A DNA stretch of 16,504 nt from Candidatus Woesearchaeota archaeon (GCA_019322815.1 JAHWIB010000028.1:1-16504), one strand, 5' to 3'. Counted from the first letter of the stretch, positions 3,000 to 12,918 are shown. Numbers and translations: made by a program. Notes: generated from the sequence alone by a model not told the origin.

Positions 3000-3557
3000 T
3001 TAGAACCAATAACCTGCTGTTAAAACAATAATTCCTTTCACATTCTCACTTCCAATCATCATAATATAATTGAATTTTGCATCAATTCTATCAAACAAAG
3101 TGTTTATTCCAACGCCAATACCAACGCTTGTACTTGATTTTTCATCATGAACACCCATTGCTGGAATATCTATATCGGAAAATTCACTTAAAAAAGCAAG
3201 CCCTCCAGTAAAATAAATATCTGCAATACCTATTGATTTAGATTGATAGACTGCATCAACTCTTAGCAAAAAACTATCTGTTTCTATATATTGTTCAGAT
3301 GATCTAAAATAATCCAAATTTGCTTCAAGACCTAAATTCCTAACTCGCTCTATATCAAACCCATATGATACGCCGACTGCAAAAGAGGCATCATAATCTT
3401 TTTCTTCTTCTGCTACAGGACAGACTAACCCAGCTTTTGGTTCTATATATTGGTCTGGCAGAGGCGCGCATCCAATTGCTAATGAAGTAATACCTGCCAA
3501 AGCCCATATCTTAACTTTTTTAACTATTGATTCAAGATTCCCTATAATATTCATCAT
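3000..3557 (-). CDS. lipobox-containing beta-rich protein resembling small 8-stranded outer-membrane beta-barrels (OmpX/OmpW/OMP_b-brl-like)
   Basis: - N-terminal hydrophobic segment ends in AIGC (a lipobox-like L-A-I-G-C).
- Several alternating hydrophobic/polar strands: FAVGVSYGFDI, LEANLDYF, LLRVDAVYQ, IYFTGGLAFL, VGIGVGINTLF, AKFNYIMMIG, IIVLTAGYWF.
- C-terminal aromatic-X-F terminus.
- The start ATG overlaps the stop of the upstream giant gene (ATGA).
Family assignment is pattern-based only. Confidence 0.6.
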   Translation of the reverse strand: MMNIIGNLESIVKKVKIWALAGITSLAIGCAPLPDQYIEPKAGLVCPVAEEEKDYDASFAVGVSYGFDIERVRNLGLEANLDYFRSSEQYIETDSFLLRVDAVYQSKSIGIADIYFTGGLAFLSEFSDIDIPAMGVHDEKSSTSVGIGVGINTLFDRIDAKFNYIMMIGSENVKGIIVLTAGYWF

Positions 3558-6500
3558 TCATCACAATATTCATAACATTTTCCAAAACTGCAAACTTTTA
3601 TGCAGTTGATGCATCTTCCTAGAGTACATCCTTTTGGACATTGTTCAATTAATTGTCCATTGTCAGAATAACTGCAAGAAGCAGATGGAGTTCCTGGATT
3701 ATTGCAAATATAAGTTCTATAATAATCCCAAACATCATCTGCATTGCAATATTCATTTCCAATAAAGTCATCTGTACCGCAGTCAGAATCATAATAACAT
3801 TCAATTGCTGCACAATTTCCTTGATAACATGTATCAGTGCATGTTTCTTTTAACTGATTATTATCTGCATAATCGCATGAAGATGAACCAGTTCCAGGAT
3901 TAGAGCAGCTATAGTCTCTAAATGTGTCCCAGACATTGTCTCCATTACAGTAATCATTATCTAACCAATAATCTGCAGTGCAGTCATTATCATCATAACA
4001 TTCTACTGCAACACACAATCCAGATTCGCATGTGTCTGTACATATCTCTTTTGACTGGCTTGCATCAGAGTATGAGCATGATGCTAAAGCTGTTCCTGGG
4101 TTGCTGCAAGTATAAGTTCTGTAATCCTGCCAGACATCATCTCCGCTACAGTATGTACTGCCTACCCATCCGTCTGTTCCGCATTCAGCATCATTATAAC
4201 ATTCTATTGTAGCGCAAGAACCTTCATAACAAATTTCTGTGCATGTTTCTTTTAATGATGAAGTAATGCTGCTTGAACAGCTTGATGAAGAAGTTCCTGG
4301 GTTGCTGCAAGTATAAGTTCTGTAATCCTGCCAGACATCATCTCCGCTACAGTATGTACTGCCTACCCATCCGTCTGTTCCGCATTCAGCATCATTATAA
4401 CATGATATTGGGTCACAACTTCCTCCAGAACAAGTATCTGGACATGTTTCTTTTAATTGATTATTATCAGAGTATGAGCATGAAGAAGATGGAGTTCCTG
4501 GACTGCTGCATGTATAGGTTCTATAACCTTGCCAGACATTGTCTCCGCTGCAGTATGTACTGCCTATCCATGTATTTGTTCCGCAGTCTGAATTTGAATA
4601 ACATTCAATTGTAGCGCAAGCGTTACTATAACATGTGTCAGGACAGTCTTGTTTTAATTGTCCGTTATCAGAGTATGAGCATGAAGAAGATGGAGTTCCT
4701 GGATTGCTGCATGTGTAGGTTCTGTAATCCTGCCAAAGATCGTTGCCGTTGCAGTAAGAACTGCCTACCCATGTATTTGTTCCGCAGTCTGAATCAGTAT
4801 AACATGATATTGTAGTGCAAGAGCCAGACCAGCAAGCATCTGCGCAAGTTTGAACTAACTGCTCTTCAATATATTCGCTTTCATAACAGGCTCCTGAAAG
4901 ACATCCTCTGTTATAACATGTTCTGCTCTTATATACATCTCCTGATTTGCAATAATTACTGCTCCAAGAACCACAGCTGCCTGTGCCGCAGTCTTCAATT
5001 AATTGGGAAGAATCTGAATATGAACAAGCTGAACTAGTAGTGCCTGGATTTGTGCATGAATAAGTCCTGTAATCCTGATAAACATCATCACTTGTACAGT
5101 ATGTATCTCCTACATAACCATCTGAGTCACAATCAGAAGTTGAATAACATTCAATTACTTCTGAAGCTGGCTGGAAATCCAAGGCTCCACCATATATGCC
5201 TGGTGGAATAAAGTTAGCTAAAACTGTAAAACCTGGATCTAGTTTATACACTCTTTTATTAGTATAATCAGAACTCCAATAAAAACTTCCATCATAAGCA
5301 ATACCATAAGGACTTGAACTAGGTGCATTATGATCACTATGCGCAACCCCACTAAACCATTCAATCGAATAGACTTTTTGATCAACCATATCAGCATTTA
5401 ATATCCAATAATCGTTAGCACATCCCAAACCATAGGGATAATCTCCGGGGGTATTAAAACTATCTGAAACAGTACCATCAGTTGACATCCTATAAATTTT
5501 ATCATCAGTGCTATCTGAAACCCATAAATAACTTTTACACCAAGTTAGTCCGCTAGCAGAAGAACTAGGAGCATTGATTGTATCTACTATTATGCCAAAT
5601 GTAGTTACTTTGTAAACTTTATCAGCTTGAGCATCAACAATCCACAGATGGCTTCCATCCCATGTAATTCCAGTAGATGCTGATCCAGGGCTGTTAAAAC
5701 TATCAACAACAGTTCCGTCAGTCGTTAATTTGTAAATTTTATCATTCCACCAGTCAACATACCATAAATAACCATCAACAATGCACTGTCCTCCATCGCA
5801 GCCATCGCTGCAAGAGGTATATAATTGAGGAGTAGTTGAGTGTGAGCAGCTTGATGATGTAGTTCCTGGATTGATGCATATGTAGGTTCTATAATCCCAC
5901 CAAACATCTCCAGAATTGCAGTAAGGATAACCTACATACCAATCAACTCCACAGTCTGAATTTGAAGAACATTCTATAGAAACACAAGCTCCTGCTTGGC
6001 ACTCATCTGGACAACTTTCGATCATATTAGGAGTTGTGCTGCTTGAACAGCTTGAAGAAGGTGTTCCTGGATTATTGCAGTCATATGTTCTATAATCCCT
6101 ATAAACATCTCCTCCGCTGCAGTAGTTGCTTCCAGCCCAGCCGTCAGTACCGCAGTCTAAATCTGAATAGCAGGCAATACCTACACAACTTCCTCCAGAA
6201 CAAGTATCTGGACAATTTTGTTTTAGTGTAGGTGTATCTGTGCTGCTGCAAGAAGATGAAGGTGTTCCTGGATTATTGCAGTCATAGGTTCTATAACTTT
6301 GATAAACATCATTTCCACTGCAGTATGTACTGCCTACCCATCCATCTGTTCCGCAGTCTGAATCAGATGAACAACCAACAGCCTGGCAACTAGGATTGTT
6401 ATCAATACACATCTCATCTGAATTGCAATTATCTTGAACAGACCAAGCACCCCACATTATAGATCCAGTACAGCTGCTGCTTGAACCACTGCAATATTTA

Positions 6501-7105
6501 TCTGCATAGTGAACTCCTACATCATCTCCAGGGCTTGTTCCCCATGGGCATCCATAATCTGTCTGGATATCTTCTCCGCATTTATAGCTTGGAAGCCTAT
6601 AGTTACATGTTGATAAATCACAGCAAACACCGCTTCCACATTGACCAAAGGTTATATCTACATTCTGAGGAGAAGTGGTGCAGTCCCCTGTATAAGGGCC
6701 ATTGTTTATTTCAGAAATACTATAAATTTCTATTGTGTTTCCTTCTGTTCCTCCTGCAAAACTTCCTAATTCTTCGGTAAAAGTGTGGCTATAATCAACA
6801 TACGCACAGTAAGTTGGACTTTCTACAGCCTGAAAAAATTTTGTAATTCCAGTTATATAATCATCACCTACTACATCATCTTCCCAAAGATATATATCAA
6901 TTTCAACAGAACCAAAGTTATTAGCACATTCAAGCATTTCTAATGCACTCAAATAATATCTTCCGCTGACAGTAATATCAACATATTCTCCGTCACATGC
7001 AGATGATTGAACACCTATAGAACATGATGCAGATACATTCAAAGCTAATAAAATAAAAGAGAGACCACATAATAAAATTAAAAATAATCTTTTACTAACC
7101 ACCAT
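3554..7105 (-). CDS. giant secreted cysteine-rich repeat protein (1183 aa): signal peptide, N-terminal domain, 3 Cys modules, propeller-like repeats, 7 Cys modules, Cys-rich tail
   Basis: Uninterrupted 3.5-kb ORF. N-terminal signal-like segment LFLILLCGLSFILLALNVSAS. Ten ~67-aa modules containing ...DCGTDGWVGSTYCSG(D/N)DVWQDYRTYTCSNPGTPSSSCS..., each with 8 Cys. Five to six ~42-aa blades (DKIYK..DG......F..P......G...DG..LW). No C-terminal transmembrane segment. Stop is TGA. Confidence 0.85.
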   Translation of the reverse strand: MVVSKRLFLILLCGLSFILLALNVSASCSIGVQSSACDGEYVDITVSGRYYLSALEMLECANNFGSVEIDIYLWEDDVVGDDYITGITKFFQAVESPTYCAYVDYSHTFTEELGSFAGGTEGNTIEIYSISEINNGPYTGDCTTSPQNVDITFGQCGSGVCCDLSTCNYRLPSYKCGEDIQTDYGCPWGTSPGDDVGVHYADKYCSGSSSSCTGSIMWGAWSVQDNCNSDEMCIDNNPSCQAVGCSSDSDCGTDGWVGSTYCSGNDVYQSYRTYDCNNPGTPSSSCSSTDTPTLKQNCPDTCSGGSCVGIACYSDLDCGTDGWAGSNYCSGGDVYRDYRTYDCNNPGTPSSSCSSSTTPNMIESCPDECQAGACVSIECSSNSDCGVDWYVGYPYCNSGDVWWDYRTYICINPGTTSSSCSHSTTPQLYTSCSDGCDGGQCIVDGYLWYVDWWNDKIYKLTTDGTVVDSFNSPGSASTGITWDGSHLWIVDAQADKVYKVTTFGIIVDTINAPSSSASGLTWCKSYLWVSDSTDDKIYRMSTDGTVSDSFNTPGDYPYGLGCANDYWILNADMVDQKVYSIEWFSGVAHSDHNAPSSSPYGIAYDGSFYWSSDYTNKRVYKLDPGFTVLANFIPPGIYGGALDFQPASEVIECYSTSDCDSDGYVGDTYCTSDDVYQDYRTYSCTNPGTTSSACSYSDSSQLIEDCGTGSCGSWSSNYCKSGDVYKSRTCYNRGCLSGACYESEYIEEQLVQTCADACWSGSCTTISCYTDSDCGTNTWVGSSYCNGNDLWQDYRTYTCSNPGTPSSSCSYSDNGQLKQDCPDTCYSNACATIECYSNSDCGTNTWIGSTYCSGDNVWQGYRTYTCSSPGTPSSSCSYSDNNQLKETCPDTCSGGSCDPISCYNDAECGTDGWVGSTYCSGDDVWQDYRTYTCSNPGTSSSSCSSSITSSLKETCTEICYEGSCATIECYNDAECGTDGWVGSTYCSGDDVWQDYRTYTCSNPGTALASCSYSDASQSKEICTDTCESGLCVAVECYDDNDCTADYWLDNDYCNGDNVWDTFRDYSCSNPGTGSSSCDYADNNQLKETCTDTCYQGNCAAIECYYDSDCGTDDFIGNEYCNADDVWDYYRTYICNNPGTPSASCSYSDNGQLIEQCPKGCTLGRCINCIKVCSFGKCYEYCDE
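3611..5155 (-). repeat. C-terminal array of seven ~201-bp (67-aa) Cys-rich coding modules, plus one degenerate unit
   Basis: Protein residues about 651-1165. The YRTY.C.NPGT motif recurs with a 67-aa period. The DNA period of 201 bp is confirmed by the perfect duplicate at 4092-4202 and 4293-4403. Confidence 0.8.
4092..4403 (-). repeat. pair of perfectly identical 111-bp segments (4092-4202 and 4293-4403), offset 201 bp
   Basis: Direct comparison of the sequence. Both copies read gttcctgggttgctgcaagtataagttctgtaatcctgccagacatcatctccgctacagtatgtactgcctacccatccgtctgttccgcattcagcatcattataacat. They encode the identical 37 aa CYNDAECGTDGWVGSTYCSGDDVWQDYRTYTCSNPGT in modules 7 and 8. Confidence 0.9.
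5156..5779 (-). other. beta-propeller-like internal domain of the giant protein (5-6 blades of ~42 aa; NHL/YncE-like pattern)
   Basis: Residues about 443-650. Repeated pattern [LY]W..D...DK[IV]Y[KR]....G.....[FI]..P.....G[IL]. Family assignment is tentative. Confidence 0.5.
5780..6373 (-). repeat. N-terminal array of three ~201-bp Cys-rich coding modules
   Basis: Protein residues about 245-442. Same module consensus as 3611-5155 (DCGTDGW.GS.YCSG.DVY..YRTYDCNNPGTPSSSCS). Confidence 0.75.
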
Positions 7106-7135
7106 TTTCCCCTTTTATTAGTATATTCTTTAAAA

Positions 7136-7143
7136 TATATAAA
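7136..7143 (-). promoter_or_regulatory. possible TATA box (TTTATATA on the minus strand) for the giant-protein operon
   Basis: First T lies 38 nt upstream of the ATG at 7105, implying a short leader. Divergent from the tRNA-Met promoter. Confidence 0.35.
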
Positions 7144-7196: not shown

Positions 7197-7360
7197 GGCG
7201 GTATAACTCAGCCTGGTTAGAGTGTTACGCTCATAAAAGTTGAGCGCTGAGGCTTTATGCCAATGATCTAAACTCGACCATGAATCGTAAAAGTCCCGAG
7301 TTCAAATATCCTAAAGGGAGACCACAAATCCCTCAGGATTTGAGAGTCTCGGTACCGCCA
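7197..7360 (+). tRNA. tRNA with CAT anticodon (elongator Met or Ile2) carrying two introns (anticodon loop, about 49 nt; T-loop region, about 40 nt)
   Basis: Hand fold:
- Acceptor GGCGGTA (7197-7203) pairs perfectly with TACCGCC (7353-7359); discriminator A7360.
- D arm ACTC / AGCCTGGTTA / GAGT.
- Anticodon stem TTACG (7225-7229) pairs with CGTAA (7286-7290). The loop starts CTCATA, giving anticodon CAT at 7232-7234.
- Intron 1, about 7236-7285, contains TGAGCG, which can pair with the CGCTCA of the anticodon region.
- T stem CCGAG (7296-7300) pairs with CTCGG (7348-7352). T-loop TTCAAAT is followed or interrupted by about 40 nt (about 7306/7308 to 7345/7347).
- Not an initiator: G1:C72 and an AU-rich anticodon stem. 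Confidence 0.75.
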
Positions 7361-10327: not shown

Positions 10328-10759
10328 ATGAGATTATGGAGTATACATCCAAAGTATCTTGACTGCAAGGGGATTTTAGGATTATGGAGAGAAGCATTAT
10401 TAGCTAAAAAAGTGTTGGAGGGTAAAACTAAAAGTTATGTTAATCATCCCCAGTTGGAAAGATTCAAAGAACAAAAAGAGCCTGTTAAGTTCATTAAAAC
10501 TTATTTATTATATATCTGGAAAGAATCTGATAAAAGATGTTATAGATTTGACAAAACAAAAATTGGAAGAGGTTTTACAAATAAAAAGATAAAAACAACA
10601 GAAGGCCAGATTAAATATGAATTTAAGCATCTGAAAGATAAGCTTAAAAAAAGAAACACAATTAAATACAAAGAATTAATGAGAATTAAAAAAATTGAAC
10701 CAAATCCTTTATTTAAAATAATAAAAGGCCCAATAGAAAGATGGGAGAAACAAAAATGA
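10328..10759 (+). CDS. pyrimidine dimer DNA glycosylase / endonuclease V (DenV-like) family protein
   Basis: The N-terminus MRLWSIHPKYLDCKGILGLWREALLAKKVLEGKTKSYVNHPQL matches the conserved start of this family as I recall it (MRLWSLHPKYLD.KGLVALWREALLAQ.VL.G.T.GY.NHPQL). Stop is TGA. Confidence 0.8.
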   Translation: MRLWSIHPKYLDCKGILGLWREALLAKKVLEGKTKSYVNHPQLERFKEQKEPVKFIKTYLLYIWKESDKRCYRFDKTKIGRGFTNKKIKTTEGQIKYEFKHLKDKLKKRNTIKYKELMRIKKIEPNPLFKIIKGPIERWEKQK

Positions 10760-11286
10760 AAAAACTATTGCTGCATGTATGCTGCGCACCTTGCTCAACA
10801 CATGTAATTAATGTTCTGAAACAAAATTATGACTTAACTTTGTTTTTCTATAATCCAAATGTAGAGCCGTTGAATGAGTATTCTTTAAGATTAGAAGCAG
10901 CTGAAAAGTTTGCAGAAGAGATAGATATTCCAATGATTGTGGGAGATTATGATGCAATTGAATGGAACAATGCAATAAAAGGCCATGAAAATGACGAAGA
11001 AGGTGGAGAAAGATGTTCTATCTGTTTTAGATTCAGGTTAGAAAAGACTGCACAGACTGCTAAAGAAAAAGGATTTGATTTGTTTACAACAACATTAACT
11101 GTTTCTCCTTATAAAAATGCTCCTGTTATTAATCAAATTGGAAAGGAATTATCTGAAAAATATAATATTGAGTTTTTAGAATCTGATTTTAAAAAAGAAG
11201 ATGGTTATGCACATAGTATTAAGCTGAGCAAAGAGCATGGATTATACAGGCAGGATTACTGCGGATGTTTATTTTCCAAGAAATAA
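10756..11286 (+). CDS. queH: epoxyqueuosine reductase QueH (DUF208)
   Basis: LLLHVCCAPCS near the N-terminus, the RCSICFRFRLEKTA motif and the TTTLTVSPYKN motif are typical of QueH. The ATG at 10756 overlaps the upstream TGA (ATGA) and is preceded by GGGAG. The track start at 10741 would lie inside the upstream gene. Confidence 0.85.
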   Translation: MKKLLLHVCCAPCSTHVINVLKQNYDLTLFFYNPNVEPLNEYSLRLEAAEKFAEEIDIPMIVGDYDAIEWNNAIKGHENDEEGGERCSICFRFRLEKTAQTAKEKGFDLFTTTLTVSPYKNAPVINQIGKELSEKYNIEFLESDFKKEDGYAHSIKLSKEHGLYRQDYCGCLFSKK

Positions 11287-11297
11287 AATAAAAAAAT

Positions 11298-11630
11298 TTA
11301 TCTCCTTAGTTTTGCTGTAAATAAAATACCAAAGGAGACGATTAATCCATATGCTATAAGAATCTTATCAAGAGACACGTAGTTCATCAAGAACAATATT
11401 ATTCCTACAATCAATGCTGCTAATCCTGTAATTAAGAGGAAAATCTCTATAGTGCTTCTGAATACCTGGGCTTTAAATCCATATAATGCATCTAAAACAC
11501 TCTCTTTAATCTCCTCTACTCTTTTCACATATTTCTGGCCTAAATAATTTGCTGTTATCTGAGAAATCAAATCAACATAACTTACAACTTTTCCAACTTT
11601 TTTTACTTTGCTCTTGATTTTTGAAATCAT
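11298..11630 (-). CDS. small membrane protein (110 aa; amphipathic N-terminal region plus two TM segments), YqjE/DUF1469-like topology
   Basis: The start ATG overlaps the stop of the upstream DUF883-like gene (ATGA). Two hydrophobic segments (IFLLITGLAALIVGIILFLM and ILIAYGLIVSFGILF). The family call rests on topology and gene context only. Confidence 0.5.
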   Translation of the reverse strand: MISKIKSKVKKVGKVVSYVDLISQITANYLGQKYVKRVEEIKESVLDALYGFKAQVFRSTIEIFLLITGLAALIVGIILFLMNYVSLDKILIAYGLIVSFGILFTAKLRR

Positions 11631-11887
11631 TTTCTTCTCTTTTTAGCTAATGCTCCAACTGCTGCTCCTAATGCTGCTCCAATTCCTGCTGCAATTGCAG
11701 CTGCTTTTTCTGGATTTTTCTTGACATATTCTCTTACTTGTTTTTCATGCTTAGCAAATTTGGCTTTTGCTTTTTTCATCTCAGCAACTGCCATTCTTTC
11801 ATATTTTTTAATCTCTGCTTTAATATCTTTTTTAGAAGTAGGTTTTTTTGCTTTTTTAGCTGTTTTTTTAGCTTTCTTTTTTGCCAT
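11627..11887 (-). CDS. DUF883 (ElaB/YqjD/YgaM)-like tail-anchored protein (86 aa)
   Basis: The C-terminus EYVKKNPEKAAAIAAGIGAALGAAVGALAKKRRK resembles the DUF883 C-terminal consensus (YV.ENPW.A.G.AA..G...G.LL.RR). Lys-rich helical N-terminus. GAGGTG Shine-Dalgarno at 11893-11900. TTTAAATA about 46 nt upstream of the ATG. Confidence 0.6.
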   Translation of the reverse strand: MAKKKAKKTAKKAKKPTSKKDIKAEIKKYERMAVAEMKKAKAKFAKHEKQVREYVKKNPEKAAAIAAGIGAALGAAVGALAKKRRK

Positions 11888-11934: not shown

Positions 11935-12918
11935 TTATTTATTTAGAATCAGCATTGCATCTCCAAAACTAAAGAACCTGTATTTATTTTTGACTGCTAA
12001 TTTATATGCACTTAAAATCTTTTTTCTTCCTGTGAATGCACTTACTAGCATCAATAAAGTGGATTTAGGCAGATGAAAGTTTGTTATTAAGCCATCAATC
12101 TTTGTCTTAAACTTATAACCTGGCTTAATGAAAATCTCTGTTTCTCCTTTTTTTGGAATAATTTTATTGTTTTTGTTTGCTGATTCTAATGTTCTTACTG
12201 ATGTTGTTCCAACAACAAATAATCTTCCTTTTCTTTTGTTTATAATATCTGCATTCTTTTTGTTTATTTCAAAATATTCTTTATGCAATGTTTTTTTATT
12301 AATATTTCTTACAGGCAGAAATGTTCCAAAGTCAACATGCAATGTAACTTTTGCAATTCTTATCCCTTTTTTCTTGATTTTAGATAATAATCTTTTTGTA
12401 AAATGCAGTCCAGCTGTCGGCGCTGCAATGCTTCCTTTTTTATTTGAATAAACTGTCTGGTATTGAGAATTTTTTTCTAGCTTTCTTTTAACATAAGGAG
12501 GAAGGGGCAATTGCCCAATAGATCCCATTATCTTGTTAACATCTTCATCAAATTCAACTGTGAAATGATCTTCATCCTGATCTATTATTTCTGCTTTATA
12601 TTTATTGAAGATCAATTTATTACCCACTCTTGGATTAGTTGCTTTTATCCTGCATTTGTATTTGTTTTTATCAATTTCTTCAATAATCAATTCAACTTTT
12701 GCTCCTGTTGTCTTTTTTCCTGTTAATTTAGCTGGAATCACTTTTGTTTCATTTACAACTAAAACATCTCCTTTATTCAAATAATCTAGGATGTTGTAGA
12801 ATTTCTTATGATGGATTTTTTTGTTTATTATCATTAATTTAGAATTATCCCTAGGTGAAACTGGAAACTGTGCAATAAATTCTTTTGGAAGATTATAATC
12901 AAAGTCAGATAATTTCAT
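11935..12918 (-). CDS. queA: S-adenosylmethionine:tRNA ribosyltransferase-isomerase
   Basis: Colinear with E. coli QueA as I recall it: MKLSDFDYNLPKEFIAQFP, PLPPY, YQTVYS...GSIAAPTAGLHF, VTLHV..GTF.PV, VGTTSVRTLES, ITNFHLPKSTLLMLVSAF, YRFFSFGDAMLI. Confidence 0.92.
   Translation of the reverse strand: MKLSDFDYNLPKEFIAQFPVSPRDNSKLMIINKKIHHKKFYNILDYLNKGDVLVVNETKVIPAKLTGKKTTGAKVELIIEEIDKNKYKCRIKATNPRVGNKLIFNKYKAEIIDQDEDHFTVEFDEDVNKIMGSIGQLPLPPYVKRKLEKNSQYQTVYSNKKGSIAAPTAGLHFTKRLLSKIKKKGIRIAKVTLHVDFGTFLPVRNINKKTLHKEYFEINKKNADIINKRKGRLFVVGTTSVRTLESANKNNKIIPKKGETEIFIKPGYKFKTKIDGLITNFHLPKSTLLMLVSAFTGRKKILSAYKLAVKNKYRFFSFGDAMLILNK

What the first reader, a model, noticed from the sequence alone, without database searches (positions are those of the whole stretch)
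3000..7105. Two-gene surface module: giant anchorless Cys-rich repeat protein translationally coupled to a beta-barrel-like lipoprotein
The 1183-aa ORF has a signal peptide but no transmembrane or sorting-type C-terminus. It ends in a Cys-rich tail (CINCIKVCSFGKCYEYCDE).

Its stop codon overlaps the ATG of the next gene (GAATGATG, ATGA overlap). That gene encodes a 185-aa lipobox protein. The two are therefore almost certainly made together.

Hypothesis (inference): the small protein is the membrane-embedded anchor or export partner for the large adhesin-like protein. In an episymbiotic DPANN-type archaeon, such a pair could be a host-attachment device. I know of no described archaeal system with this architecture.
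Basis: partly seen in the sequence, partly recalled or inferred. Interest (0 to 1): 0.8.

Follow-up and report, generated by a model that had tools for sequence, protein, structure and literature searches.

The report
Archaeal cysteine-hairpin tag with barrel partner
In a tiny symbiotic-type archaeon (Woesearchaeota), secreted proteins that end in a short conserved cysteine-rich hairpin are almost always followed by a gene for a small lipoprotein predicted to fold like a bacterial outer-membrane barrel; this looks like an undescribed way of tethering proteins to an archaeal cell surface.

Summary
A 1183-aa secreted Cys-rich protein (3554-7105, minus strand) overlaps by ATGA a 185-aa lipobox protein (3000-3557). 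The contig is archaeal: NCBI labels it Woesearchaeota, and a two-intron tRNA lies 91 bp upstream.

The small protein passes Pfam OMP_b-brl. AlphaFold (pLDDT 88) models it as an 8-stranded barrel that matches only OmpA, OmpX, Ail, NspA and similar proteins, and it has a lipid-facing hydrophobic belt. It belongs to a rare, discrete family: about 96 clusters, and 88 hits among 1.84 billion representatives.

The giant is not tag-less. Its last ~15 residues (C-x3-C-[NS]-[FY]-G-x-C-Y-x-Y-C) form a conserved tail. In 21 of 24 informative loci a tail-bearing protein lies just upstream of a barrel gene. These cargoes are diverse: stalk-and-propeller giants, subtilases, and a 209-aa protein. Of the 120 best Cys-repeat homologues listed, the three clear tail-bearers (P0008, P0009, P0108) all have a barrel neighbour. 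At the orthologous locus, giants ending in CARDB are followed by an unrelated lipoprotein.

Best reading (about 0.5): a modular system in which the tail is a docking tag and the barrel is the anchor. The interface and the membrane involved remain untested. The host-attachment role is unsupported. I found no description of this pairing; myxobacterial TraA/TraB is the nearest analogue.

The parts
3554..7105 (-). Cargo gene: 1183-aa secreted, disulfide-rich stalk-and-propeller protein (NCBI KY343_04610)
   Evidence: ORF and translation. 239 homologues, mostly labelled Woese-, Pace- or Nanoarchaeota. AlphaFold model with pLDDT 72.
7028..7105 (-). Signal peptide of the cargo (aa 1-26)
   Evidence: Hydrophobic N-terminus ...LALNVSAS, modelled as helix 5-21. 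Cleavage is inferred.
6656..7027 (-). N-terminal beta-sandwich domain (aa 27-150), no family match
   Evidence: AlphaFold strands 27-150, pLDDT about 60-86. No Pfam or NCBIfam hit.
5771..6376 (-). Three ~67-aa Cys-repeats (aa ~244-445); consensus C.s.sDCGtdg..G..YC.g.DVw.dYRTY.C.NPGT.sSsCS.S....l.e.C.d.C..G.C
   Evidence: Repeat scan. Each unit is modelled as a short helix, a three-stranded sheet and a mini-hairpin.
5168..5773 (-). Five-bladed beta-propeller (aa 445-646), Vgb-lyase/NHL-like
   Evidence: Pfam Vgb_lyase 43.2 bits, below the cut-off of 50. PDB sequence hits to virginiamycin B lyase, E=6e-11. 20 strands with pLDDT 90-96. Foldseek hits to Vgb lyase and NHL propellers.
3611..5158 (-). 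Seven further Cys-repeats (aa ~650-705 and ~765-1165) with a low-confidence spacer (708-756)
3557..3613 (-). C-terminal Cys-hairpin tail (aa 1165-1183, CINCIKVCSFGKCYEYCDE): the proposed docking tag
   Evidence: Conserved in the protein upstream of the barrel gene in 21 loci. Among the 120 best-scoring Cys-repeat homologues listed, only 2 have the strict motif and 2 a looser one. Modelled as a beta-hairpin 1167-1173/1176-1182 with the turn at F1174-G1175, which puts C1172 opposite C1177 and C1168 opposite C1181; pLDDT is only about 50.
3554..3557 (-). ATGA stop/start overlap between cargo and barrel genes
   Evidence: Sequence read directly.
3000..3557 (-). Barrel gene: 185-aa lipobox, OmpX/OmpA-type 8-stranded beta-barrel protein (NCBI MBW2982134.1, 'porin family protein')
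   Evidence: Pfam PF13505 above the gathering cut-off; 76 of 92 family members hit it. AlphaFold pLDDT 88, pTM 0.74. Foldseek hits to OmpA, OmpX, NspA, Ail, OprF-N and OmpW, probability 1.0.
3468..3557 (-). Signal peptide with lipobox (aa 1-30, ...SLAIGC; Cys30)
   Evidence: The Cys is present in about two-thirds of the family; the rest have an SPI-like ...LxLxAQS. Lipidation is inferred; AliA is reported to be present in DPANN (PMC12462473).
3009..3452 (-). Eight transmembrane-type beta-strands (aa 36-183), ending ...LTAGYWF-COOH. Invariant motifs DYFxSS-QYIET, EFSxIDIP-xxxVHD and SENVKG lie at the end of the barrel opposite the termini.
   Evidence: DSSP of the model. Dyad hydrophobicity +1.32 against -0.49 over 92 sequences, with conserved aromatics at strand ends. 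Invariant columns.
7135..7143 (-). TATA-like box (TTTATATAT) about 34 nt upstream of the cargo ATG; candidate archaeal promoter of the bicistron
   Evidence: Read from the sequence. Inference only, not tested.

Best explanation
The locus is one copy of a modular two-gene surface-display cassette of Woesearchaeota (DPANN).

Gene 1 encodes a Sec-exported, disulfide-rich cargo. Here it is a stalk of ~67-aa Cys-repeats carrying an N-terminal beta-sandwich and a five-bladed propeller. Its C-terminus is one terminal Cys-repeat followed by a ~15-residue tail, C-x3-C-[NS]-[FY]-G-x-C-Y-x-Y-C, which folds as a beta-hairpin stapled by disulfides.

Gene 2, co-transcribed and here translationally coupled, encodes an exported 8-stranded OmpX/OmpA-type beta-barrel. 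It usually carries a lipobox Cys for an archaeol lipid anchor.

Proposed mechanism: the barrel is held at or in a membrane by its lipid anchor and hydrophobic belt. It binds the cargo's hairpin tail non-covalently, most likely by beta-sheet augmentation on its conserved protruding end or at the barrel seam. This tethers an otherwise anchorless secreted protein to the cell surface. The tail is therefore a docking tag and the barrel its cognate anchor. The cargo is interchangeable (adhesin-like giants, subtilases, small proteins).

Shown: the gene pair, the tail's conservation and its exclusive linkage to the barrel, the barrel's fold and belt, and the archaeal host.

Inferred: physical binding, the binding site, lipidation, and which membrane is involved.
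For: 1. Linkage. In 21 distinct loci a tail-bearing protein lies upstream of a barrel gene on the same strand. In 19 it lies 0-213 nt upstream; in L022 and L023 one or two lipoprotein genes lie between. This includes a second pair in the same genome (P0009 with P0128, L005).

2. Exclusivity.
- All 18 genuine tail motifs at ORF ends in 235 kb of fetched DNA precede a barrel gene (with barrels confirmed).
- Of the 120 best Cys-repeat homologues, only P0008 and P0009 have the strict tail, and P0108 and P0090 a looser one. The first three have a barrel neighbour.
- Tail-less giants (L035, L036, L037) have no barrel-family ORF by HMM at E<=10, while the positives score 1e-60 to 1e-68.

3. Natural swap. 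At the orthologous position (Flavin_Reduct - RuBisCO - giant - X - TYW3), CARDB-ending giants are followed by an unrelated lipobox lipoprotein, and tail-ending giants by the barrel.

4. Portability. The same tail ends Peptidase_S8 subtilases (L008, L010), PPC- and TSP3-containing proteins and a 209-aa protein, with cargo lengths of 209 to at least 1617 aa.

5. The barrel is an exported membrane-type protein.
- PF13505 above its cut-off, hit by 76 of 92 members.
- AlphaFold pLDDT 88 with 8 strands.
- Foldseek top hits are exclusively 8-stranded OMPs, probability 1.0, TM-score 0.55-0.69.
- A hydrophobic outward dyad and aromatic girdle are conserved across 92 sequences.
- A lipobox is present in about two-thirds of members, and the archaeal lipidation enzyme AliA is reported in DPANN (PMC12462473).

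6. The tail is modelled as a hairpin that places the Cys pairs across the strands.

7. Distant bacterial relatives, such as the Planctomycetota protein P0255, join a surface cargo, a C-terminal TM/Arg-rich tag and a lipobox-barrel in one ORF. This links the barrel type to tagged surface proteins more widely.

8. Precedent for the logic. In TraA/TraB, a Cys-repeat stalk protein with a C-terminal tag overlaps by 4 bases the gene for an envelope partner needed for its function (PMC3325183).
Against:
- Confidence in the tail hairpin is low (pLDDT about 50).
- Barrel and tail co-diversify only weakly (Mantel r=0.27, p about 0.02). Conserved order alone could reflect co-regulation.
- Topology problem. 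Cultivated DPANN show a cytoplasmic membrane plus an S-layer, with no outer bilayer (PMC11329633), and archaea have no known BAM. With the lipid anchor about 5 residues before strand 1, embedding the barrel in the cell's own membrane would point its invariant end toward the cytoplasm, away from a secreted tail.
- About a quarter of the family lacks the lipobox Cys.
- Three barrels are orphans or tandem copies without visible cargo (L019, L021, L029).
- L006 has two proteins with a looser tail and no barrel on 8.4 kb.
- The loci were collected by searching with the barrel, so tails located far from barrels elsewhere in these genomes would have been missed.
Confidence: 0.5

Rival explanations
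1. Export or assembly partner in a diderm envelope. The barrel sits in a second (outer) lipid membrane of these Woesearchaeota, with canonical OMP topology: lipidated N-terminus in the inner leaflet and the conserved end exposed. There it either presents the cargo or helps it cross or assemble at that layer, in the manner of two-partner secretion or TraB. This implies that some Woesearchaeota have an outer membrane.
For: This is the only topology that puts the family-invariant end of a belt-bearing OMP-type barrel on the outside, given a lipid anchor about 5 residues before strand 1. The fold, belt, aromatic girdle and C-terminal ...GYWF / ...GYRF(LF) are all canonical OMP features. The bacterial relatives come from diderms (P0255, Planctomycetota). 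A possible OMP relative in Altiarchaeales has been mentioned in the literature (PMC12228718).
Against: An 8-stranded barrel is too narrow to conduct a folded or even an extended 1183-aa disulfide-rich cargo (established knowledge of OmpA/OmpX-type barrels). Neither partner has POTRA or TPS features. No Omp85/BamA-like gene was seen in the fetched DNA. Imaged DPANN have an S-layer and no outer bilayer (PMC11329633). No Woesearchaeota cell has been imaged, to my knowledge.
Confidence: 0.15
2. Contact and membrane-interaction device aimed at another cell. The barrel, especially the lipobox-less variants, and/or the amphipathic Cys-hairpin insert into a partner or host membrane. The pair then mediates adhesion and possibly lipid or protein exchange, as TraA/TraB does in myxobacteria, or acts as a translocated receptor as in Tir-intimin.
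For: The parallel with TraAB: Cys-repeat stalk, recognition domain, C-terminal tag, 4-base overlap, and an envelope partner required for adhesion and exchange of outer-membrane lipids and lipoproteins (PMC3325183). Small 8-stranded OMPs can fold into bilayers without BAM in vitro (own knowledge). DPANN generally lack lipid synthesis and depend on host contact (own knowledge). The propeller plus Cys-module architecture resembles receptor ectodomains of the LDLR, LRP2 and Sevenless type. About a quarter of the barrels have no lipid anchor.
Against: The cargoes include subtilases and a 209-aa protein, not only adhesin-like proteins. Most barrels have a lipobox that would hold them on the producer cell. 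None of TraA's PA14, TIGR04201 or MYXO-CTERM, nor TraB's OmpA domain, is present. The host of these archaea is unknown, and no data bear on transfer.
Confidence: 0.12
3. No direct interaction. The tail is merely a structural cap or terminal variant of the Cys-repeat array, and the barrel is an independent envelope protein (porin-like, lipid-binding or structural). The two travel together by shared ancestry and co-regulation.
For: The tail almost always follows a Cys-repeat and begins where the next repeat would start. Co-diversification is weak. Orphan barrels and barrel-less tail-like proteins exist (L021, L029, L006). Sampling was centred on barrels.
Against: Most Cys-repeat arrays end without the tail: in TM helices, CARDB domains or other termini (116 of the 120 listed). 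The three clear tail-bearers among them (P0008, P0009, P0108) have barrel neighbours. L013 carries the tail with no Cys-repeat at all, yet still has the barrel 7 nt downstream. Cargo bodies are unrelated (subtilase versus propeller giant) while tail and barrel persist. The downstream lipoprotein type switches together with the C-terminus type at an orthologous locus.
Confidence: 0.15
4. Artefact: the pair belongs to a bacterial contig mis-binned into an archaeal MAG, which would make an OMP barrel unremarkable.
For: QueA, QueH and an OMP_b-brl protein are typically bacterial. The taxonomic labels come from metagenome bins.
Against: On the same contig, 91 bp upstream of the giant's start, is a tRNA-Met gene with two introns, one of them in the T-loop. 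It gives a perfect cloverleaf only after both are removed, which is an archaeal trait. Related loci carry TYW3, RuBisCO large subunit and ribosomal protein S3Ae next to the pair. Every labelled record is Woesearchaeota, and the Cys-repeat homologues are overwhelmingly labelled DPANN.
Confidence: 0.02

Closest known systems
Myxobacterial TraA/TraB outer-membrane exchange system (PMC3325183)
   Same: [quoted passage not shown] The downstream gene overlaps it by four bases and encodes an envelope partner required for the same function. Paralogous pairs occur in one genome.
   Different: TraAB is bacterial (a diderm). TraA's tag is MYXO-CTERM, a TM helix with an Arg-rich end and an invariant Cys, not a helix-free Cys hairpin. 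Its repeats are TIGR04201 and its head is PA14, and none of these is detected here. TraB is much larger and carries an OmpA/MotB peptidoglycan-binding domain. The cargoes here also include proteases.
Eight-stranded bacterial outer-membrane barrels: OmpX, Ail, NspA, OmpA N-domain, OprF-N, OmpW (Pfam PF13505 and its clan)
   Same: Pfam match above the cut-off. The fold matches with Foldseek probability 1.0 and TM-score 0.55-0.69. Shared features are the lipid-facing belt, the aromatic girdle, a C-terminal aromatic signature, and long strands that protrude at one end. In OmpX and Ail such a protruding edge binds external proteins by strand pairing (own knowledge).
   Different: The host is an archaeon with no known outer membrane or BAM. 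Sequence identity is only 13-20%, and there is no PDB relative detectable by sequence. An N-terminal lipobox is present. The barrel gene is obligately adjacent to a gene for a tail-tagged cargo. The family is discrete and rare.
C-terminal sorting tags with dedicated partners (PGF-CTERM/archaeosortase, PEP-CTERM/exosortase, LPXTG/sortase, T9SS CTD with PorV)
   Same: A short or compact conserved C-terminal element shared by functionally unrelated secreted proteins and genetically tied to a specific envelope protein. In the T9SS the element is recognised by a beta-barrel, PorV.
   Different: The tail has no TM helix or basic cluster. The partner is not a polytopic transpeptidase. The genes are arranged roughly 1:1 and adjacent, not as many cargoes per sorting enzyme. 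The T9SS CTD is a 70-100-aa Ig-like domain, and PorV is a 14-stranded FadL-like barrel. No NCBIfam tag or PorV model matches.
Sulfolobales SlaA/SlaB (own knowledge)
   Same: An archaeal operon in which a large outer surface protein is held on the cell by a small, co-transcribed, membrane-anchored partner.
   Different: SlaB anchors through a C-terminal TM helix and a coiled-coil stalk, and SlaA forms the S-layer lattice. There is no barrel, lipobox or Cys-hairpin tag. I did not test homology.
Type V secretion (autotransporters, two-partner secretion)
   Same: A large repetitive passenger protein genetically coupled to a beta-barrel.
   Different: Type V barrels have 12-16 strands, with POTRA domains in TpsB, and TpsA has an N-terminal TPS domain. 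Here the barrel has 8 strands in about 150 aa and cannot form a translocation pore. None of those domains was found.

Membership tests
Pfam PF13505 OMP_b-brl / 8-stranded OmpA-OmpX-type barrels | Profile HMM score at or above the curated gathering cut-off | tested here: met
   34.2 bits against 28.7. 76 of 92 family members match at E<=0.01, best 7e-12.
Pfam PF13505 OMP_b-brl / 8-stranded OmpA-OmpX-type barrels | Closed antiparallel barrel of eight membrane-spanning strands | tested here: met
   AlphaFold pLDDT 88, pTM 0.74, eight strands. Foldseek top hits are OmpA, OmpX, NspA, Ail, OprF-N and OmpW, probability 1.0. This rests on a prediction, not a solved structure.
Pfam PF13505 OMP_b-brl / 8-stranded OmpA-OmpX-type barrels | Lipid-facing hydrophobic belt with aromatic girdles; polar or small residues inside | tested here: met
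   Mean Kyte-Doolittle +1.32 on one face against -0.49 on the other, over 92 sequences. Conserved Tyr/Phe at strand ends. Derived from the sequence dyad pattern, not from coordinates.
Pfam PF13505 OMP_b-brl / 8-stranded OmpA-OmpX-type barrels | C-terminal beta-signal ending in an aromatic residue | tested here: inconclusive
   The window protein ends ...LTAGYWF. Most members have ...GYRF, but many continue with LFGGKK or longer extensions.
Pfam PF13505 OMP_b-brl / 8-stranded OmpA-OmpX-type barrels | Resides in a lipid outer membrane and is assembled by BAM | not testable with these tools
   The host is an archaeon. Imaged DPANN have an S-layer and no outer bilayer (PMC11329633). No localisation data exist.
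TraA/TraB (myxobacterial OM exchange) | TraA: PA14-like domain, TIGR04201 Cys-repeats and MYXO-CTERM (TIGR03901) | tested here: not met
   No PA14 in Pfam. No NCBIfam/TIGRFAM hit for the giant. The tail has no TM helix.
TraA/TraB (myxobacterial OM exchange) | Bicistronic operon with a four-base overlap between the Cys-repeat protein and its envelope partner | tested here: met
   ATGA overlap at 3554-3557; described for traAB in PMC3325183.
TraA/TraB (myxobacterial OM exchange) | TraB: C-terminal OmpA/MotB peptidoglycan-binding domain (PF00691) | tested here: not met
   Only PF13505 was found in the small protein.
Sortase-type C-terminal tags (PGF-CTERM, PEP-CTERM, LPXTG, MYXO-CTERM) | Tripartite signal: short motif, hydrophobic TM helix and basic tail | tested here: not met
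   The tail CINCIKVCSFGKCYEYCDE has no hydrophobic helix and ends in acidic residues. No NCBIfam tag model matches.
T9SS CTD / PorV | 70-100-aa Ig-like CTD on the cargo; PorV/PorQ-family 14-strand barrel | tested here: not met
   The best PorV_fam score is 14.6 bits against a cut-off of 90, and only for the L007 barrel. The barrel has 8 strands and the tail is about 15-19 aa.
Type V secretion (autotransporter / two-partner) | 12-16-strand translocator barrel (with or without POTRA); TPS domain on the passenger | tested here: not met
   Eight strands in about 150 aa. No such Pfam domains. Autotransporter barrels appear only as weak Foldseek hits with TM-score 0.34-0.38.
Archaeal lipoproteins (lipobox, AliA-dependent archaeol thioether anchor) | Signal peptide followed by a lipobox ending in an invariant Cys | tested here: inconclusive
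   The window has L-A-I-G-C, with -1 Gly and -2 Ile fitting and -3 Ala instead of L/V/I in the consensus quoted in PMC12462473. The Cys is present in about two-thirds of the family; the rest have an SPI-like site.
Archaeal lipoproteins (lipobox, AliA-dependent archaeol thioether anchor) | Lipidation machinery (AliA) in the genome, and actual lipidation | not testable with these tools
   AliA is reported to be present in DPANN generally (PMC12462473). This genome was not available for a search.

The most novel reading that the evidence does not exclude
The barrel is a genuine membrane-embedded OMP in canonical orientation. In that case at least some Woesearchaeota have a second, outer lipid membrane, or they deploy the barrel into a partner cell's membrane. 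The Cys-hairpin tail fits the polar-x-Gly-x-x-hydrophobic-x-hydrophobic 'beta-signal' pattern. On this reading it is donated to the barrel, at its seam or its protruding sheet, to lock large surface proteins onto that membrane. That would be an archaeal, BAM-independent counterpart of bacterial OMP-based surface display, possibly used for host contact or lipid exchange in the manner of TraAB.
Probability: 0.2. Interest if true: 0.95.

Novelty: new variant of a known kind. Interest (0 to 1): 0.75.

Why it matters
Beta-barrel outer-membrane-type proteins are regarded as a hallmark of diderm bacteria and their organelles. A conserved, operon-embedded family of them in DPANN archaea, tied one-to-one to a new C-terminal tag, is unexpected.

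If the tag-anchor reading is right, it gives three things:
- a rule for recognising which of the many 'anchorless' giant Cys-rich proteins of Woesearchaeota are displayed on the cell;
- a minimal portable tag-and-receptor pair, about 15 aa plus about 155 aa, that could be tested and reused for surface display;
- a concrete handle on how uncultivated episymbiont-type archaea build their contact surface.

If the canonical OMP topology holds, it reopens the question of envelope architecture (one membrane or two) in a major uncultured archaeal lineage, and the question of how beta-barrels insert without BAM.

Tried and rejected
- **Bacterial contamination.** Rejected because of the two-intron tRNA-Met 91 bp upstream of the giant's start, the archaeal neighbours in related loci (TYW3, S3Ae, RuBisCO) and the consistent Woesearchaeota labels.\n- **Soluble lipocalin- or avidin-like barrel.** Rejected. 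The outward strand faces are hydrophobic and the inward faces small or polar, and all structural matches are membrane OMPs.\n- **Known C-terminal tag or known OMP sub-family.** NCBIfam found nothing for either protein. There is no PDB relative by sequence.\n- **Tail as a general feature of the Cys-repeat family.** Rejected: only 2 strict and 2 loose examples among the 120 best homologues.\n- **The 'exceptional' loci L022, L023 and L024** (Cys-poor ~325-aa upstream neighbour). They cover open-access papers and preprints only.\n- **Complex prediction.** Not possible with the tools available here.

Full report
**1. Observation**

The window has two adjacent minus-strand ORFs, 3554..7105 (1183 aa) and 3000..3557 (185 aa).

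The large product starts with a typical signal peptide, contains 109 Cys (9.2%) and ends ...RCINCIKVCSFGKCYEYCDE. The small product starts MMNIIGNLESIVKKVKIWALAGITSLAIGC... and ends ...LTAGYWF. The junction reads GATGAATGATGAAT, so the giant's TGA overlaps the small gene's first ATG, and a second ATG follows.

**2. Host**

Neighbouring genes include typically bacterial ones (QueA, QueH) as well as beta-CASP, QPRTase, HIT, TspO and others, so I checked which domain of life the contig comes from.

At 7197-7360 (+), 91 bp upstream of the giant's start, lies a tRNA-Met(CAT) gene interrupted by two insertions. One is 49 nt, after the anticodon loop. The other is 40 nt, inside the T-loop. ARAGORN and Rfam miss the gene as it stands. 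Once both insertions are removed, ARAGORN returns a perfect 75-nt cloverleaf, and the precursor folds far better than shuffled sequences (z = -5.9). Multiple tRNA introns at non-canonical positions are an archaeal trait (established knowledge).

The public records agree. The giant is 'hypothetical protein KY343_04610 [Candidatus Woesearchaeota archaeon]'. The small protein is MBW2982134.1 'porin family protein [Candidatus Woesearchaeota archaeon]', on a 16,506-bp contig. Related loci carry TYW3, RuBisCO large subunit and ribosomal protein S3Ae beside the pair. The DPANN guess is right, and contamination can be dismissed.

**3. The small protein**

- It passes Pfam's curated cut-off for OMP_b-brl (PF13505; 34.2 against 28.7 bits).
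- With a 92-sequence alignment, AlphaFold gives pLDDT 88 and pTM 0.74: a signal helix followed by eight long antiparallel strands.
- Foldseek against the PDB returns only bacterial outer-membrane barrels at the top. These are the OmpA TM domain, OmpX, NspA, Ail, OprF-N and OmpW, at probability 1.0, TM-score 0.55-0.69 and 13-20% identity.
- A profile search of PDB sequences finds nothing at E <= 1, so the relationship is remote.
- Across the family, one face of every strand is hydrophobic (mean Kyte-Doolittle +1.32) and the other polar or small (-0.49). Conserved Tyr/Phe sit at the strand ends. This is the signature of a lipid-embedded barrel, not a soluble one.
- The family is discrete and rare. 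A word-indexed profile search gives about 96 clusters of 170-217 aa, with an E-value gap from 1e-23 to 9e-3. An exhaustive HMMER scan of 1.84 billion representatives gives 88 hits at E <= 1e-3 and 28 at E <= 1e-10.
- 76 of 92 members hit PF13505.
- About two-thirds have a lipobox Cys. About a quarter have an SPI-like ...LxLxAQS instead.
- AliA, the archaeal lipoprotein lipidation enzyme, is reported to be present in DPANN (PMC12462473).

**4. The large protein**

Pfam sees only a sub-threshold Vgb_lyase propeller. The only PDB sequence hits are to virginiamycin B lyase.

AlphaFold (pLDDT 72; the pTM of 0.37 is expected for a chain of separate domains) gives the following architecture:
- signal helix;
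- an N-terminal beta-sandwich (aa 27-150);
- three ~67-aa Cys-repeats;
- a five-bladed propeller (aa 445-646, pLDDT 90-96);
- seven more Cys-repeats;
- a terminal beta-hairpin (1167-1173 / 1176-1182, turn at F1174-G1175) that places C1172 opposite C1177 and C1168 opposite C1181. This hairpin has only about pLDDT 50.

Whole-model Foldseek hits are propellers, and receptor ectodomains that combine propellers with Cys-rich modules (LDLR, LRP2, Sevenless).

The Cys-repeat is widespread in DPANN surface proteins. There are 239 homologues, fused to CARDB, MopE-like, glycosidase, peptidase and other domains.

**5. The key finding: a tail tied to the barrel**

Among the 120 best Cys-repeat homologues, only the window protein and its in-genome paralogue P0009 have the strict tail. 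P0108 and P0090 have looser versions. The rest end in TM helices, CARDB domains or other termini.

P0009 and P0108 are each followed by a homologue of the small protein (BLASTP 8e-56 and 4e-34 against P0001).

Working from the barrel side, I collected loci by exact look-up and by pattern scans. I then examined the DNA upstream of each barrel.
- 21 distinct loci have a tail-bearing protein upstream on the same strand. In 19 of them it lies 0-213 nt upstream. In L022 and L023/L024, one or two extra lipoprotein genes lie between.
- 3 loci lack it: L019 (tandem barrels, only 417 nt of upstream DNA), L021 (a toxin-antitoxin pair inserted upstream) and L029 (a barrel with an N-terminal extension).
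- The remaining loci are too short to judge.

In 235 kb of fetched DNA, every genuine tail motif at an ORF end precedes a barrel (read together).

The tails fall into two classes:
- C-x3-C-N-[FY]-G-x-C-Y-E-Y-C, with 0-3 further residues;
- C-x4-C-[NS]-x-G-x-C-Y-Y-[VI]-COOH.

The tail is almost always preceded by one complete Cys-repeat.

The cargo bodies are otherwise unrelated. They include stalk-and-propeller giants, Peptidase_S8/I9 subtilases (L008, L010), PPC- and TSP3-containing proteins and a 209-aa protein with no Cys-repeat. Lengths run from 209 to at least 1617 aa.

**6. Controls**

Three tail-less Cys-repeat giants (L035, L036, L037) and the loose-tail locus L006 contain no barrel-family ORF. 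An HMM search of all six-frame ORFs at E <= 10 found nothing in them, while the positive controls scored 1e-60 to 1e-68.

L035 and L036 are syntenic with the tail-and-barrel loci L001 and L005, sharing Flavin_Reduct - RuBisCO - giant - X - TYW3(-) - NTP_transf_2 - HTH_8. In L035 and L036 the giant ends in CARDB, and X is an unrelated lipobox lipoprotein of 232 or 346 aa. So the type of downstream lipoprotein switches together with the type of C-terminus. That is what a C-terminus-specific partner would look like.

**7. Mechanism**

The best-supported reading is a modular tag-and-anchor cassette. The cargo is exported. Its terminal hairpin is bound by the co-expressed barrel, and the barrel is retained by its lipid anchor and hydrophobic belt.

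The barrel's invariant residues cluster at the end opposite its termini: DYFxSS-QYIET, the protruding strand 5-6 hairpin EFSxIDIP...VHD, and SENVKG. This recalls the protruding sheet edge that OmpX and Ail use to bind proteins by strand pairing (own knowledge).

The tail N-[FY]-G-x-C-Y-x-Y also fits the polar-x-G-x-x-Hy-x-Hy beta-signal pattern (own knowledge), so donation of a strand to the barrel seam is an alternative binding mode.

None of this was tested.

**8. The open problem: which membrane?**

Imaged DPANN have a cytoplasmic membrane plus an S-layer (PMC11329633), and archaea have no known BAM.

The lipid anchor is about 5 residues before strand 1. Canonical OMP topology therefore exposes the conserved end only if the barrel sits in a second bilayer. 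If the barrel were embedded in the cell's own membrane, that end would face the cytoplasm.

The rivals follow from this:
- a diderm envelope with an OMP-type presenter (0.15);
- a device acting on another cell's membrane, as TraAB does (0.12);
- no direct interaction (0.15).

Distant relatives in diderm bacteria, such as the Planctomycetota protein P0255, fuse a surface cargo, a TM/Arg-rich tag, a lipobox and the barrel into one ORF. This suggests both a bacterial origin for the barrel and an older association with tagged surface proteins.

**9. Comparison with known systems**

- **TraA/TraB (closest in logic).** It has a Cys-repeat stalk protein with a recognition head and a C-terminal tag. 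The downstream gene overlaps by 4 bases and encodes an envelope partner. Both are needed for adhesion and for exchange of outer-membrane lipids and lipoproteins (PMC3325183). None of its defining domains is present here.
- **Barrel fold.** The small protein is a divergent member of the OMP_b-brl superfamily.
- **Other tag systems.** Sortase-type tags, T9SS CTD/PorV and type V secretion all fail their defining features (see the membership table).
- **Literature.** I found no paper describing this pairing. NCBI's pipeline merely names the small protein 'porin family protein'.

**10. Verdict**

The pair is real, conserved and very likely functional as a unit. The cassette is a general display module, not an adhesin-specific one. 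This is a new variant of tag-plus-partner surface anchoring, built from an unexpected part: an OMP-type barrel in an archaeon. Interest is 0.75.

Noticed in passing
window 7197-7360 (+): tRNA-Met(CAT) gene with two introns: 7237-7285 after the anticodon loop and 7308-7347 inside the T-loop. ARAGORN and Rfam do not detect it unspliced. It gives a perfect 75-nt cloverleaf once both introns are removed, and the pre-tRNA folds with z = -5.9.
   Followed up: yes
window 10741-11286 (+) and 11935-12918 (-): QueH (epoxyqueuosine reductase) and QueA (S-adenosylmethionine:tRNA ribosyltransferase-isomerase) are bacterial-type queuosine genes on a Woesearchaeota contig. Archaea normally make archaeosine, so these are probably horizontally acquired.
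   Followed up: no
window 11627-11887 (-): An 86-aa ORF with sub-threshold glycine-zipper hits (Gly-zipper_Omp, DUF883_C, YMGG-like), a motif typical of bacterial envelope proteins.
   Followed up: no
L023 4919-6998 and L022 3323-4300: In one sub-clade, one or two extra lipoprotein genes sit between the tail-bearing giant and the barrel. The 322/325-aa one shares the barrel's unusual conserved signal peptide, MKQKLESI.KKGK..LAGL.SLAIGC. Neither has a Pfam family.
   Followed up: partly
L035 10847-11545; L036 9220-10260: An alternative cassette at the orthologous locus: giants ending in a CARDB domain are followed by an unrelated lipobox lipoprotein (232 or 346 aa; both share EKAK[LM]EEY..W.QIN). 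This suggests a second family of C-terminus-specific partners.
   Followed up: partly
P0255, P0261, P0246, P0252, P0256: High-GC distant relatives (P0255 is from a Planctomycetota MAG) carry the barrel at the C-terminus of a longer ORF. In P0255 and P0261 a cargo domain, a Gly/Cys-rich segment, a TM helix, an Arg-rich stretch and a lipobox precede it. They look like fusions, or read-throughs, of a tagged cargo with its barrel.
   Followed up: partly
L021 4115-4658: An 88-aa/91-aa gene pair that looks like a toxin-antitoxin module (by sequence inspection; no family search was run) is inserted directly upstream of an orphan, lipobox-less barrel gene. It may have displaced the cargo gene.
   Followed up: no
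L006 1247-6101: Two consecutive proteins (1298 and 324 aa) end in a looser tail, VC[IV]RGSCYEYY[GS], with no barrel-family ORF anywhere on the 8.4-kb contig. This is either a divergent tag that uses a distant partner or a counter-example to strict pairing.
   Followed up: partly
L037 5711-10479: A TM-anchored Cys-repeat giant lies beside MurL/Mur-ligase, FtsW/RodA and MurG-like genes, which are cell-wall-type synthesis genes, on a contig fetched through a Cys-repeat homologue (P0065).
   Followed up: no
L023 7643-8110 (-): A 155-aa signal-peptide protein rich in Gly and beta-strand patterns, convergent with the barrel gene. It is not detectably related to the barrel family (hhalign probability 0.8%) and has no Pfam hit.
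   Followed up: yes
L019 1-366 and 418-966: Two barrel-family genes in tandem: the upstream ORF ends ...TLTCGYRFRF. This shows local duplication of the barrel without a visible cargo on this short contig.
   Followed up: no
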